DNA of 9,690 nt, taken from a virus (lineage: Duplodnaviria; Heunggongvirae; Uroviricota; Caudoviricetes). How positions within the stretch are numbered: position 1 is the first letter of the stretch; the number at the start of each line of letters is the position of its first letter. This document shows, piece after piece, positions 3,971-6,123 of this stretch. The DNA lies in the IMG/VR virus record IMGVR_UViG_2551306491_000022. One strand, 5' to 3'. The position numbers and the translations under genes were made by a program. The notes below the pieces were generated by a model, which saw nothing but the letters and a program-made list of their open reading frames with translations, searched no databases and was not told where the DNA came from.

Positions 3971-5371
3971 TCCTACATCATCACCGTCAATGTAGATCAC
4001 GTCGTCTTTTTCCAGTTTGGCTAACCATCGTTTAAGGTGTTTTGTGTCATACCCCAGCTTTTTCATATCGTCACGTAACAGCGGGATCGTGCACTTGTCG
4101 CCGTGCTGTGTGCGTGAACGTATGCATCCCCATAGCGCGGTATGGTTTTCCGTCTTGTTGCCTGCCTCCTCGATGCGCTCCAGTTCAACGGGAGGGCGCG
4201 GCTTATCCACCACCACCAGCGACGTGATTAACTCCCCGTCAGCGTCGGTAAAAAGCTCCACCACGCGTAAGTCATATGCGGCTTCTTTGAGTTCCTCCGC
4301 GTCCTTCATTTTGGTGCATGAGATAACCAGCGCTTCGCTTCCTGCGTCCTCCCTGCGTATCCGGTATTCAGCATCCAGTGATGCACGAAATGCACTGGAA
4401 CCGCGCGCGCCTTTCGTCTCATCCTTGCCGGAATGGTGAACCACCAACACCGTGGCCCCTGTGCGTCGTTTCAGTTCGTCACAACCACGGATAAACGCCC
4501 CCATATCACGGGAATCATTTTCATCATTCCCACCAAAGCAACGCGCCAGCGTATCCAGAATAATCATGCGTACAGGTTTACCCGTTTCCCGCTCCACCTG
4601 ACGGGCAGCGATAACCATTTCATCAACATCAAGCGGGACCGCCGGAAAGATGGGACGGTTTACCAGATACAGATTTTTCACCTGCTCACCGTGCACAACC
4701 TCCCAGGCTTTTACACGACGCGGAACGCCGATACCGCCTTCACCAACCACATAGAGAACAGCGCCATGCGCCACCCTGCGGCCTCCCCACTGACGGCCCG
4801 TGGAAACGTGACACGCCCACGATCCGGCAAGGAATGATTTATAGGAACCGCTCGCCCCGTATATGCTGCAAAGCGACGATGCCGGAATAATCCCCTTTAC
4901 CACGTAATCAAGCTGTGTGTCGTATCCGGTAGATCCAACGCTCATCGGTAGCGTGGTTTTTCGCTGGGGGATTTTTTTCATGACCAGGCTTTCCCCGCGT
5001 TCCCATGCCTCCCTAAGCCGTGGAAGCTGGTCGCTCCATTCCTCCAGCAATTCGAAATTTTCAGAAAGTAGCCGCGCCTCCTGGACTCCGGCGATCGCCA
5101 GTTTCGTGGCGATGGTTAACAGCTGCGGCTCTTCAATATTTCCGGCGCGTATCACCGTCGCCCTGTATCGCCCATCATCAACAATCTGGAGGTTATCCAG
5201 TTCGCTTAACTGATAACGCCCCAGATAAACGGGAGGGACTGGATCTCCTGCTTTTTTTGCCTGTGCAATGATGTAATGCTCTGCGAATGAGTGAGCATCA
5301 ATACCCGCAAAAATAATCGCATCGGTGTATTTGTCTTTCGGTAATAGTTTTACGTTCGGTGCCAGTTTCAT
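3962..5371 (-). CDS. Replication initiator / helicase-like protein (RepA-like RecA-fold P-loop ATPase)
   Basis: 469-aa ORF, ATG start with AGGGG Shine-Dalgarno. P-loop region IYGASGSYKSFLAG, Walker B-like RMIILDTLARCFGG and VLVVHHSGKD are typical of RepA/DnaB-like AAA_25 ATPases. The C-terminal ~80 aa is basic and could be a DNA-binding domain. Gene is directly followed by iterons. Confidence 0.75.
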   Translation of the reverse strand: MKLAPNVKLLPKDKYTDAIIFAGIDAHSFAEHYIIAQAKKAGDPVPPVYLGRYQLSELDNLQIVDDGRYRATVIRAGNIEEPQLLTIATKLAIAGVQEARLLSENFELLEEWSDQLPRLREAWERGESLVMKKIPQRKTTLPMSVGSTGYDTQLDYVVKGIIPASSLCSIYGASGSYKSFLAGSWACHVSTGRQWGGRRVAHGAVLYVVGEGGIGVPRRVKAWEVVHGEQVKNLYLVNRPIFPAVPLDVDEMVIAARQVERETGKPVRMIILDTLARCFGGNDENDSRDMGAFIRGCDELKRRTGATVLVVHHSGKDETKGARGSSAFRASLDAEYRIRREDAGSEALVISCTKMKDAEELKEAAYDLRVVELFTDADGELITSLVVVDKPRPPVELERIEEAGNKTENHTALWGCIRSRTQHGDKCTIPLLRDDMKKLGYDTKHLKRWLAKLEKDDVIYIDGDDVGPL

Positions 5372-5667
5372 TTTTTACCCCTGAATCCGTTAATCATGGT
5401 TTTCAGCTTCTGGATGTTTGCCCGTGCCCTGGCGTTGCTGGTGGGCACGTTATGCGGCGCGGTCTGTACCAGAGAAAAATCACGCCGGAACTGATAAACA
5501 GGCATCACGCAATCATATTCGTAACCTTCACGGCGGTAAGTTACGCACCGTCCCGCCACGCCCTTAATCATTACCGTGCCGCCGTACTGGTCGCGGTAAA
5601 TATCACCGCGCGTAAATTTAGGGTGAGTGTTGCCACTGGCAGTTAAGCCAGAATATTTAAGTTTCAT
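5368..5667 (-). CDS. Hypothetical protein (99 aa), translationally coupled to rep
   Basis: ATG at 5667; GGAG about 10 nt upstream. Its TGA overlaps the rep ATG (ATGA at 5368-5371). No recognisable motif. Confidence 0.55.
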   Translation of the reverse strand: MKLKYSGLTASGNTHPKFTRGDIYRDQYGGTVMIKGVAGRCVTYRREGYEYDCVMPVYQFRRDFSLVQTAPHNVPTSNARARANIQKLKTMINGFRGKK

Positions 5668-5672
5668 TATTT

Positions 5673-5900
5673 TTATTCTCCGGTGTGGGGCGCGTTATTA
5701 TTTTCGTGAATTGCCATTGCCTTATCCAGTTCATCAATAACAGGCGATAGTAATGTCTGAATGGCTGCAAACATTAATACACCTGATTCCTCACCACCTT
5801 CCGGCACTTCAATTAATTTAATTAACAACGCATTCATTTCGCGTGCTTTAATTAATGCGTTTTCAGAGTGGATTAATACTTCAAAAGGGATTTTATGCAT
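5673..5900 (-). CDS. Hypothetical small protein (75 aa), AT-rich gene
   Basis: ATG at 5900..5898 (the track start at 5903 is GTG). GGGAG upstream. Overlaps the stop of the upstream gene by 8 nt. Confidence 0.45.
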   Translation of the reverse strand: MHKIPFEVLIHSENALIKAREMNALLIKLIEVPEGGEESGVLMFAAIQTLLSPVIDELDKAMAIHENNNAPHTGE

Positions 5901-6123
5901 CACAAATTTTCTCCCTTATTCTTTTAATGTCCTCATTAAGGATGTCTGTAACTTTTATCAGCGAGTTTTTGGCAATTATTTTTATTGTTTTAAGTTTTCT
6001 TTTGTCGTGCTCCGACTGTGATTTTCTCTCCATAATCTCCACCATGTGGGTAACATCAACGAGCGCACGTATCAGTATTTGCATTGCTTCTTCTGCTGCG
6101 TCCGGTGTGGTTTTATTGTGCAT
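5893..6123 (-). CDS. Hypothetical small protein (76 aa), first gene of the replication operon, AT-rich
   Basis: ATG at 6123..6121 preceded by AGGGGGA at about 6-nt spacing (the track start at 6165 is GTG). Predicted helical protein, no recognisable motif. Confidence 0.45.
   Translation of the reverse strand: MHNKTTPDAAEEAMQILIRALVDVTHMVEIMERKSQSEHDKRKLKTIKIIAKNSLIKVTDILNEDIKRIREKICDA

What the first reader, a model, noticed from the sequence alone, without database searches (positions are those of the whole stretch)
5368..6123. AT-rich cluster of three overlapping small genes at the head of the replication operon
Three ORFs of 76, 75 and 99 aa are translationally coupled (8-nt overlap, 5-nt gap, ATGA overlap into rep). 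The first two are visibly AT-richer than the rep and capsid genes, suggesting separate origin. None shows a motif I recognise. In satellites, small leading genes of this kind often encode helper-interference, anti-repressor or defence/anti-defence functions, so this is a reasonable place for an undescribed accessory system.
Basis: inference. Interest (0 to 1): 0.55.

Follow-up and report, generated by a model that had tools for sequence, protein, structure and literature searches.

The report
Small early-operon genes of a satellite
The three small genes are real and sit in the early operon of an E. coli phage satellite: the third is the already described regulator RgdR, and the first two are an uncharacterised, exchangeable pair of small helical proteins, so most of the finding is ordinary.

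Summary
Three co-directional minus-strand ORFs of 76, 75 and 99 aa have the stated overlaps, each has a ribosome-binding site, and the first two are clearly AT-richer. Two points are wrong. The trio is not the head of the operon: a 66-aa Icd-like gene (6113-6313) overlaps ORF1 by 11 nt. And ORF3 does carry a known signature: it is a DUF4222 protein, 99 aa, with RGD at residues 20-22 and 78% identity to RgdR (ECs1581), a published regulator reported in all analysed E. coli PICIs.

In 14 E. coli satellite loci laid out here the order is Icd-like, then 0-3 variable small genes, then usually an ORF2-type gene, then RgdR, then one of at least four replicase types. DNA homology to other elements stops in the last codons of ORF2 and resumes in the first codons of ORF1. 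ORF1 plus ORF2 are therefore a swappable AT-rich cassette between conserved anchors. ORF1 occurs in 43 of 5426 E. coli genomes, ORF2 in 195 and rgdR in 1443.

ORF2 is predicted to be an acidic helical hairpin with no fold or domain match. No defence-system model matches any of the three.

A published six-gene Icd-like-to-primase cluster that arrests growth in response to a phage protein probably has the same architecture.

Verdict: a new member of a known kind, of modest interest.

The parts
6415..6444 (-). Candidate sigma-70-like promoter (TTGACG-18-TACATT) in the divergent intergenic region upstream of the Icd-like gene. This is a weak consensus match only.
   Evidence: The number of promoter-like sites is not above the shuffled expectation, so this is a position guess and not a finding.
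6113..6313 (-). Icd-like gene (66 aa). It is the true first gene of the coupled run and a conserved upstream anchor of the cassette.
   Evidence: NCBIfam NF033153 at 64.6 bits against a cut-off of 25. PHROG 29966 and 1743. GAGGAG ribosome-binding site and an 11-nt overlap with ORF1. Homology to other elements spans about 6093/6130 to 6350-6390.
5893..6123 (-). ORF1 (76 aa, pI 8.8, predicted helical from sequence only). It is a rare allele of a modular small-protein family that fills the variable slot after icd.
   Evidence: PGAP CDS. PHROG 5146 at E 5e-6. Only 24 clusters of homologues, all from Escherichia. Found in 43 of 5426 E. coli genomes. dN/dS 0.39. Family clustering.
5673..5900 (-). 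ORF2 (75 aa, acidic, pI 4.9), a predicted two-helix hairpin. It belongs to a narrow family restricted to satellites and usually lies just upstream of rgdR.
   Evidence: AlphaFold2 pLDDT 82, helices 6-30 and 36-68. No fold match in PDB or BFVD. PHROG 2196 at E 2e-8. 13 representative clusters among 1.84 billion proteins. Found in 195 of 5426 genomes. dN/dS 0.13-0.24. Synteny.
5368..5667 (-). ORF3 is an RgdR orthologue (99 aa, DUF4222, RGD at residues 20-22, pI 10.2). It is a conserved downstream anchor, ATGA-coupled to rep.
   Evidence: Pfam PF13973 at 82.1 bits against a cut-off of 27. 78% identity over 99 aa to Sakai ECs1581. Found in 1443 of 5426 genomes. Literature: PMC3378721 and PMC6092414.
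5699..6092 (-). Exchangeable cassette body, comprising most of ORF2 and ORF1. Nucleotide homology to the elements that carry a different cassette is lost across this stretch.
   Evidence: blastn breakpoints at 5682-5698 and 6093-6130 against L009, L011-L014, L022 and L023. In L006-L008 only ORF1 is replaced or missing, with a break at 5900-5903.
3962..5371 (-). RepA-family (AAA_25) replicative helicase, the replication gene that the small genes precede.
   Evidence: Pfam PF13481 at 151 bits. PHROG 2850. The first 76 nt and about 140 N-terminal aa are shared with other replicase types.

Best explanation
The window is an E. coli PICI-type phage satellite. It carries an integrase, an AlpA-like regulator, a RepA helicase, SSB and a ClpP-capsid fusion, and is integrated at tRNA-Pro next to yejM.

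The three ORFs are genes 2 to 4 of its early operon: icd-like, ORF1, ORF2, rgdR, repA. The overlaps (11 nt, 8 nt, a 5-nt gap, 4 nt) suggest translation by coupling, so the small proteins would be made together just ahead of the replicase.

The trio is not one accessory system. ORF3 is RgdR, a small, very basic protein that binds DNA without sequence specificity and changes host transcription. ORF1 and ORF2 form an AT-rich cassette that recombination swaps between the conserved icd-like and rgdR anchors.

Most likely mechanism (inferred, not shown): after a helper phage switches on AlpA, the operon delivers host-takeover proteins. Icd-like would block cell division. RgdR would remodel nucleoid-associated silencing. 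The small helical-hairpin cassette proteins would be protein-binding adaptors that tune or gate these activities against a particular host or phage partner, giving different satellites different specificities.
For: Shown here:
- Gene geometry and ribosome-binding sites, and identical CDS calls in a 99.9% identical chromosome locus at tRNA-Pro.
- Icd-like, DUF4222 and AAA_25 assignments.
- ORF3 is 78% identical to ECs1581/RgdR over all 99 aa, with RGD at residues 20-22.
- The same gene order occurs in the two experimentally studied prototypes, EcCICFT073 and Sakai Sp7, the counterpart of OI-51/EcCIEDL933.
- 12 loci clustered into families give the order Icd, then 0-3 variable genes, then an ORF2-type gene, then RgdR, then a replicase of at least four types. 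Sakai Sp7 and CFT073 add two more loci.
- Sharp homology breakpoints lie at 5682-5698 and 6093-6130.
- The identical RgdR protein, WP_000770163.1, sits next to both the 75-aa and the 77-aa ORF2 subtypes and next to RepA, primase and P4-primase replicases.
- Genome counts are 43, 195 and 1443 of 5426 for ORF1, ORF2 and rgdR. An alternative cassette occurs in 386 genomes.
- All three genes show purifying selection.
- ORF2 is a confident helical hairpin. Its family is uniformly acidic, whereas RgdR is uniformly basic.

From papers:
- AlpA activates the EcCICFT073 operon and depends on the helper phage (PMC6092414). The alpA requirement also holds in EcCIEDL933.
- RgdR activates LEE1, represses motility, increases Congo-red binding and binds DNA non-specifically (PMC3378721).
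- An ECOR61 six-gene Icd-like-to-primase cluster causes growth arrest on expression of phage orf24. Tn5 suppressors fall in the Icd-like gene and in two adjacent genes of 186 and 192 nt. These lengths and overlaps equal those of ECs1578 and ECs1579 in Sp7.
Against: - No experiment addresses ORF1 or ORF2 themselves, and their binding partners are unknown.
- Equating the ECOR61 cluster with the Sp7-type operon rests on gene lengths, overlaps and annotation only. I could not read that contig.
- The Tn5 hits there could be polar effects on downstream genes.
- The ECOR61 cassette genes belong to different families from the window's ORF1 and ORF2.
- The idea that RgdR counteracts H-NS-type silencing is my inference from the published phenotypes. 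It has not been tested.
- The AlpA-like protein of this window scores below Pfam's threshold (17.8 against 21 bits). It is separated from icd by 1.4 kb of plus-strand genes, so AlpA control of this particular operon is assumed by homology.
- dN/dS below 0.4 gives no sign of the diversifying selection often seen in arms-race genes.
Confidence: 0.6

Rival explanations
1. One reading: the trio, or at least ORF1 and ORF2, is a self-contained and undescribed accessory system of foreign origin. Candidate roles are helper interference, antirepressor, or defence/anti-defence. It would be carried as cargo and be unrelated to the core life cycle of the satellite.
For: - The cassette is variable and AT-rich between conserved anchors.
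- It is restricted to satellites.
- It has no known domain.
- The position is analogous to ant after icd in P1 and to epsilon upstream of alpha in P4 (my own knowledge).
- The ECOR61 growth-arrest result involves the slot genes.
Against: - ORF3 is the conserved, known RgdR.
- An ORF2-type gene is present in most loci whatever the replicase type.
- There is no PADLOC, Pfam or NCBIfam match to defence, Ant, Ash or toxin families.
- The cassette has no promoter or terminator of its own above chance and is translationally coupled on both sides.
- In ECOR61 all six genes, including the primase, were needed for the effect. That argues for an integrated operon function and against a stand-alone cassette.
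Confidence: 0.15
2. ORF2 and RgdR, and possibly ORF1, are replication accessory proteins, for example an origin-opening factor or a helicase or primase loader. They would be kept next to the replicase because they work with it.
For: - rgdR is always ATGA-coupled to the replicase, and an ORF2-type gene usually lies directly upstream.
- In one cf-PICI-like record an ORF2-like gene lies directly before the primase.
- The first 76 nt and about 140 N-terminal residues of otherwise different replicases are conserved together with rgdR.
- RgdR binds DNA (PMC3378721).
- Reconstituting the ECOR61 phenotype needed the primase.
Against: - The identical RgdR allele pairs with RepA-helicase, primase and P4-primase replicases and with two ORF2 subtypes that share only about 33% identity.
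- ORF2-type genes are missing from some DUF927-type elements.
- RgdR has strong trans effects on unrelated host promoters when expressed alone.
- The literature I read reports no replication defect assigned to these genes.
Confidence: 0.15
3. A toxin-modulator module. Icd-like would be a growth-arresting effector. The translationally coupled gene after it (ORF1), and perhaps ORF2, would be its cognate antidote or sensor. Together they would form an abortive-infection-like switch.
For: - icd and ORF1 overlap by 11 nt.
- The ORF1-family N-terminus (M-x-N-K-T-T-P-D-A-A) is conserved across otherwise different slot genes.
- Silas et al. name the Icd-like protein as the likely effector of growth arrest.
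Against: - Loci L007, L015 and L004 have Icd-like but no ORF1-family gene.
- Transposon hits in the slot genes suppressed toxicity in ECOR61. Loss of an antitoxin would do the opposite.
- No toxin-antitoxin or PADLOC model matches.
Confidence: 0.07
4. ORF1 and ORF2 are not functional genes. The AT-rich stretch would be regulatory DNA, such as a site where H-NS silencing starts or a spacer, and the ORFs would be incidental.
For: - GC is 0.34-0.39, the lowest coding region of the window.
- Low GC persists in this position across elements.
Against: - dN/dS is 0.13-0.39 at dS of 0.3-0.96.
- Lengths, starts, ribosome-binding sites and overlaps are conserved.
- There are PHROG family matches.
- ORF2 has a confident fold.
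- Homologues keep the frame at 33-35% identity.
Confidence: 0.03

Closest known systems
RgdR (ECs1581) of O-island 51 / CP-933C / Sakai Sp7, which is the cf-PICI EcCIEDL933 (Flockhart et al. 2012, PMC3378721)
   Same: ORF3 is 99 aa, carries DUF4222, has RGD at residues 20-22 and K35, and is 78% identical over its full length. It has the same position, a 5-nt gap after the preceding small gene and an ATGA overlap into the replicase.
   Different: Residue 10 is A instead of D and residue 45 is R instead of H. The neighbouring replicase is a RepA helicase instead of a DUF927 primase. Activity on LEE1 and motility has not been tested for this allele.
Early operon of EcCICFT073, the prototype Gram-negative PICI (Fillol-Salom et al. 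2018, PMC6092414)
   Same: The order is Icd-like, small genes, a 77-aa ORF2-type gene, DUF4222 (C1493), then the replicase. AlpA-dependent activation and helper dependence were shown for that element.
   Different: EcCICFT073 carries a four-gene cassette from other families or subtypes and a primase-type replicase. The window has the rarer two-gene cassette. It also has four plus-strand genes between alpA and icd.
ECOR61 six-gene Icd-like-to-primase locus that arrests growth on phage orf24 expression (Silas et al. 2023, bioRxiv 10.1101/2023.04.06.535777)
   Same: An Icd-like gene is followed by overlapping small hypothetical genes and a primase. The suppressor genes of 186 and 192 nt, with 8-nt and 1-nt overlaps, match ECs1578 and ECs1579 of Sp7. 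Sp7 has the same operon plan as the window.
   Different: The Icd-like protein there has a long N-terminal extension. Its cassette genes belong to other families (F5, F6). The equivalence is inferred because I could not read that sequence.
Phage P1 immI operon (c4 RNA, icd, ant) and the phage P4 genes upstream of alpha (cII, epsilon, orf151). This comparison rests on my own knowledge.
   Same: An Icd-type gene is translationally coupled to the gene that follows it, and small regulatory or antirepressor genes lead into the replication gene of a satellite.
   Different: No C4-type RNA was found (Rfam). There is no similarity of ORF1 or ORF2 to Ant, AntA or Ash families. P4-type genes are absent.

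Membership tests
RgdR / DUF4222 (PF13973) | Match to the Pfam DUF4222 model above the gathering score | tested here: met
   ORF3 scores 82.1 bits against a cut-off of 27, E 2.1e-23, covering residues 16-68. It also matches PHROG 285 at E 2e-31.
RgdR / DUF4222 (PF13973) | A 99-aa protein with the RGD tripeptide at residues 20-22 and more than 77% identity to ECs1581 over its full length, as given for orthologues in PMC3378721 | tested here: met
   99 aa with R20-G21-D22. Identity to Sakai ECs1581 is 77 of 99 residues, or 78%.
RgdR / DUF4222 (PF13973) | Activates LEE1 and type III secretion and represses motility when expressed | not testable with these tools
   This needs reporter and motility assays. 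CFT073 C1493, given as 83% homologous to ECs1581, was active, while a 94% similar R20C variant was not.
Gram-negative PICI (Fillol-Salom 2018) | Integrase at one end, AlpA-type regulator, pri/rep gene, a size of about 10-15 kb, and no lysis or tail genes | tested here: met
   Integrase at 8449-9690, RepA at 3962-5371, an element of about 9.7 kb between yejO and tRNA-Pro, and no lysis or tail genes. The AlpA-like HTH scores only 17.8 bits against Pfam's 21, but matches PHROG 66 and 2790 at E 1e-7.
Gram-negative PICI (Fillol-Salom 2018) | Induction, replication and packaging that depend on a helper phage | not testable with these tools
   Experimental. It was shown only for the related EcCICFT073 and EcCIEDL933.
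P1 immI-type c4-icd-ant module | Icd-family protein | tested here: met
   NF033153 at 64.6 bits against a cut-off of 25 for the gene at 6113-6313.
P1 immI-type c4-icd-ant module | A C4 antisense RNA upstream and an Ant antirepressor coupled downstream | tested here: not met
   Rfam finds no C4 or any other match above gathering score in the window. ORF1 and ORF2 have no Ant, AntA or Ash hit.
Known anti-phage defence systems (PADLOC-DB 2.0) | Any component model matching ORF1, ORF2, ORF3, Icd-like or Rep | tested here: not met
   There are no matches at E up to 0.01. The alternative cassette proteins of other loci give none at E up to 0.1 apart from one chance-level match.
ORF2 family (PHROG 2196, unnamed) | A 68-84-aa acidic two-helix protein with the H-S/A-E-N and T-L-L-x-P-V-I-x-E-L motifs, encoded in a satellite early operon upstream of DUF4222 or the replicase | tested here: met
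   PHROG 2196 at E 2e-8. Alignment A1. Model. pI 4.7-5.4 in 14 members. Synteny.

The most novel reading that the evidence does not exclude
The stretch between icd-like and rgdR would be an unrecognised exchange hotspot inside the early operon of E. coli PICIs and cf-PICIs. It holds alternative cassettes of one to four tiny proteins with no known domain. Each cassette would be a specificity module that senses a particular phage or host protein and gates Icd-like growth arrest or satellite take-off. The ORF1-ORF2 pair here would be a rare module with an unknown trigger.
Probability: 0.2. Interest if true: 0.6.

Novelty: new member of a known kind. Interest (0 to 1): 0.33.

Why it matters
If the cassette proteins are specificity adaptors, they would help explain two things. 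One is how Gram-negative satellites recognise their helper phages, since the phage-encoded inducer was still unidentified in the 2018 study. The other is why a satellite operon arrests growth when it meets a particular phage protein.

In practical terms, the result corrects annotation. ORF3 should be called RgdR, a regulator that influences type III secretion and motility in pathogenic E. coli. It is carried here by a small satellite that is also present in food and clinical isolates. As it stands, the finding mostly re-describes a known operon plan and adds two uncharacterised small proteins.

Tried and rejected
- Sequence search of PDB for all three proteins found nothing below E = 1.
- Foldseek of the ORF2 model against PDB and BFVD gave only generic helical hairpins, with E above 0.9.
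- Single-sequence AlphaFold2 of RgdR was poor (pLDDT 50). Its PDB fold search gave nothing significant: a few small beta-barrels at E of about 1, which I do not rely on.
- ORF1 and ORF2 are not detectable paralogues (hhalign probability 1.6%).
- ECs1580 cannot be tied directly to the window's ORF2 (no BLASTP alignment; hhalign probability 6.7%). The only link runs through the 77-aa subtype.
- blastn against 50,697 phage records found no match. tblastn found only two small satellite-like records.
- The genome-contig scan with RgdR returned only two loci.
- Rfam found no C4 or other RNA.
- PADLOC found nothing.
- Promoter and terminator scans found nothing above the shuffled background inside the trio.
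- The O157 locus L009 turned out not to hold the published ECs1581 allele, so I fetched Sakai Sp7 directly.
- I considered that the stop-free 496-codon minus-strand ORF at 6301-7791 might be a long Icd-like extension. I rejected this because it is in a different frame from icd, has junk-like composition and no PHROG hit.
- I used both structure-prediction jobs on ORF2 and RgdR, so ORF1 has no model.
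Full report
**What the window is.** The 9,690 bases are 99.9% identical over the stretch compared to a chromosomal island of E. coli strain 4. That island lies between yejO and tRNA-Pro/yejM. On the minus strand it encodes:
- an integrase (8449-9690);
- an AlpA-like HTH protein (7746-7952);
- an Icd-like protein (6113-6313);
- the three ORFs of the finding;
- a RepA-family AAA_25 helicase (3962-5371);
- a small protein, then SSB (3089-3511);
- a ClpP-protease/major-capsid fusion (540-2429).

It has no tail, lysis or terminase genes. This is the gene plan of the Gram-negative phage-inducible chromosomal islands (PICIs) described by Fillol-Salom et al. 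2018 (PMC6092414).

**Checking the observation.**
- ORF1 is 5893-6123, ORF2 is 5673-5900 and ORF3 is 5368-5667, all starting with ATG.
- ORF1 and ORF2 overlap by 8 nt. A 5-nt gap separates ORF2 from ORF3. ORF3 overlaps rep by ATGA.
- Each start is preceded by a purine-rich ribosome-binding site.
- PGAP annotates the same three CDS in the near-identical locus.

These are real genes.
- Against diverged orthologues, dN/dS is 0.39 for ORF1, 0.13-0.24 for ORF2 and 0.29-0.48 for ORF3, at dS up to 0.96.
- All three match PHROG families.
- ORF2 folds confidently.

The AT-richness is also real. GC is 0.377 and 0.382 for ORF1 and ORF2, against 0.50-0.53 for ORF3 and rep. GC3 is 0.40 and 0.33 against 0.55-0.56.

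Two statements fail.
- The trio is not at the head of the operon. The 66-aa Icd-like gene (NF033153, 64.6 bits) overlaps ORF1's start by 11 nt and has the strongest ribosome-binding site.
- ORF3 does have a recognisable signature, as described next.

**ORF3 is RgdR.**
- It matches Pfam DUF4222 (82 bits).
- It is 99 aa, has R-G-D at residues 20-22 and a pI of 10.2.
- It is 78% identical over its whole length to ECs1581 of E. coli O157:H7 Sakai.

ECs1581 was named RgdR by Flockhart et al. (PMC3378721). According to that paper:
- it activates the LEE1 promoter and type III secretion;
- it represses motility and increases Congo-red binding;
- it binds DNA without sequence specificity;
- orthologues with more than 77% homology occur in many E. 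coli, and the CFT073 orthologue C1493 (83%) is active.

Fillol-Salom et al. state that RgdR is encoded by all analysed E. coli PICIs. I confirmed the context directly.
- In Sakai Sp7, ECs1581 follows an 80-aa gene after a 5-nt gap and overlaps the primase by ATGA. Sp7 is the counterpart of O-island 51 and of the cf-PICI EcCIEDL933.
- EcCICFT073 has the same arrangement.

**ORF1 and ORF2 are a swappable cassette between conserved anchors.** I laid out 14 E. coli loci and clustered the small proteins of 12 of them. The order is always:
- Icd-like;
- then 0-3 small genes from at least five families (the ORF1 family, F4, F5, F6, or a second Icd-like);
- then usually an ORF2-type gene;
- then RgdR;
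- then a replicase of RepA-helicase, DNA-primase, P4-primase or DUF927 type.

DUF5906 and other types also appear in the wider hit list.

The ORF2 family has two subtypes, one of 75 aa and one of 77 aa. The 77-aa subtype is about 33% identical to the window's protein. The 80-aa gene of Sp7 is linked only transitively. Two DUF927-type elements have a different 61-aa gene in that place.

Nucleotide homology between the window and the elements with other cassettes follows a fixed pattern.
- It runs from 5295 (76 nt into rep) through rgdR to 5682-5698, the last codons of ORF2 (...HTGE-stop, which also holds rgdR's ribosome-binding site).
- It then disappears.
- It returns at 6093-6130, the first codons of ORF1 and the end of icd.

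The identical RgdR protein (WP_000770163.1) sits next to either ORF2 subtype and next to three replicase types. Recombination therefore shuffles these modules at conserved junctions.

Counts among 5,426 complete E. coli genomes, by blastn:
- ORF1 in 43 genomes;
- ORF2 in 195, of which 140 are full length;
- rgdR in 1,443, of which 1,251 are full length;
- the alternative Sp7-type cassette in 386.

Low GC is a standing property of the ORF2-type gene in all eleven loci measured and of most other cassette genes. It marks the slot, not a recent arrival in this element.

**What the cassette proteins look like.**
- ORF2 is predicted to be an antiparallel two-helix hairpin (helices 6-30 and 36-68, pLDDT 82).
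- It has no significant structural neighbour in PDB or among viral models.
- The family is acidic throughout (pI 4.7-5.4), whereas RgdR is always strongly basic (pI 9.8-10.3).
- The family is tiny: 13 representative clusters among 1.84 billion proteins.
- Every context I could read is a satellite-like early operon. It usually contains DUF4222 and a replicase, in some cases with another small gene in between.
- ORF1 is lysine-rich and looks helical from its sequence, but I have no model. Its homologues are restricted to Escherichia.
- ORF1's first ten residues (M-H-N-K-T-T-P-D-A-A) are shared with otherwise different slot proteins, including a 154-aa fused form in O157.
- None of the cassette proteins, here or in other loci, matches any Pfam, NCBIfam or PADLOC model.
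- ORF1 and ORF2 are not detectable paralogues.

**Functional leads from the literature.**
[quoted passage not shown] Over-expression causes uncontrolled island replication and loss of viability.
- alpA is likewise required in EcCIEDL933.
- In the papers I read, nobody has mutated the small genes between icd and rep. Only packaging genes, int, alpA and pri were tested.

The closest functional data come from Silas et al. (bioRxiv 10.1101/2023.04.06.535777).
- In ECOR61, expression of a phage accessory gene (orf24) arrests growth.
- Tn5 suppressors map to an Icd-like gene and to the two hypothetical genes next to it.
- Those two genes are 186 and 192 nt long, with 8-nt and 1-nt overlaps. This is exactly like ECs1578 and ECs1579 in Sp7.

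I therefore infer that the ECOR61 locus is an operon of this type. This is an inference from coordinates, and polar effects of the insertions cannot be excluded.

**Most likely mechanism.**
- Shown: the genes are coupled members of one early operon. ORF3 is RgdR. ORF1 and ORF2 form an exchangeable cassette.
- Inferred: after AlpA induction the operon first delivers host-directed small proteins and then the replicase.
- Icd-like would stop cell division.
- RgdR may counteract nucleoid-associated silencing. Its published effects (LEE1 up, motility down, Congo-red binding up, non-specific DNA binding) resemble loss of H-NS function. This is my own inference.
- The helical-hairpin cassette proteins would be protein-binding adaptors that tune or gate these activities toward a particular phage or host partner.

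I put about 0.6 on the overall reading and well under 0.5 on the adaptor mechanism specifically.

**Rivals.**
- Replication accessory factors (0.15).
- An Icd toxin plus modulator pair (0.07).
- Non-coding AT-rich DNA (0.03).

**Comparison and verdict.**
- ORF3 is a member of the RgdR/DUF4222 family. All sequence-level criteria are met and activity is untested.
- The operon matches the PICI and cf-PICI early operon.
- It resembles the P1 c4-icd-ant module only in having a coupled Icd-type gene. No C4 RNA and no Ant homologue were found.

The finding is a real feature. One third of it is already described, and the rest is a rare allele in a variable slot of a known kind of element. Interest is modest. 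It would rise if the slot proves to be a specificity hotspot.

Noticed in passing
window 6335-7624 (+): There are two tandem copies of a two-gene module between alpA and icd. The first is a YlcI/YnfO-like ribbon-helix-helix gene at 6506-6685 plus a 75-aa gene at 6743-6970. The second is an Arc-like gene at 7190-7363 plus a 67-aa gene at 7421-7624. Each copy has the same 54-nt upstream element (6335-6388 and 7082-7135, 80% identical) and the same 75-nt inter-gene element (6679-6753 and 7357-7431, 81%). A HicB-type antitoxin is annotated at the same position in another element. This could be a regulatory or toxin-antitoxin-like duplication.
   Followed up: partly
window 6301-7791 (-): A stop-free ORF of 496 codons runs antisense to those four plus-strand genes. 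It starts inside the end of alpA and ends 13 nt into icd, in a different frame from icd. It has junk-like composition and no PHROG hit, so it is probably an artefact of the T-poor plus strand. PGAP nevertheless calls partial 'Icd-like' pseudogenes at this position in several related loci.
   Followed up: partly
window 3760-3963: Iteron-like direct repeats lie just downstream of rep. TTTTnnTGCCCACTTTTT occurs three times at about 84-nt spacing (3778-3795, 3861-3878, 3946-3963), and ACGTGGGAAAnTnGG occurs twice. PGAP starts the next gene at about 3759, not at 3891, so this stretch may be the non-coding replication origin.
   Followed up: no
window 540-2429 (-): A single 629-aa fusion of a ClpP-like prohead protease and an HK97-type major capsid protein sits in a 9.7-kb element that has no portal or terminase. 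This differs from EcCICFT073, which has a separate capsid and decoration protein, and from full cf-PICIs.
   Followed up: no
window 4950-5371 (-), the rep N-terminus: The first 76 nt and about 140 N-terminal residues of Rep are conserved (40-46% identity) in elements whose replicase is otherwise a DNA primase or DUF927 protein. This suggests a shared N-terminal module linked to rgdR.
   Followed up: partly
P0154; L020 and L021 4001-4252: This 83-aa protein begins with the ORF1-type N-terminus (MFSNNTPD) and continues as an ORF2-type protein. It looks like a recombinant across the conserved junction.
   Followed up: no
window 438-479 and 2976-3017: A 42-nt element (ATAAAAtCAcAAAAATGCGCyTTTTTCCGCGCC...) is repeated at 79% identity. 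One copy is downstream of the capsid gene and one is downstream of SSB. These may be terminators or regulatory sites.
   Followed up: no
L023 20192-20431 (CFT073 lambdoid prophage): A separate 79-aa DUF4222 gene lies next to the excisionase remnant and integrase of a lambdoid prophage. The domain is therefore not confined to satellites.
   Followed up: no
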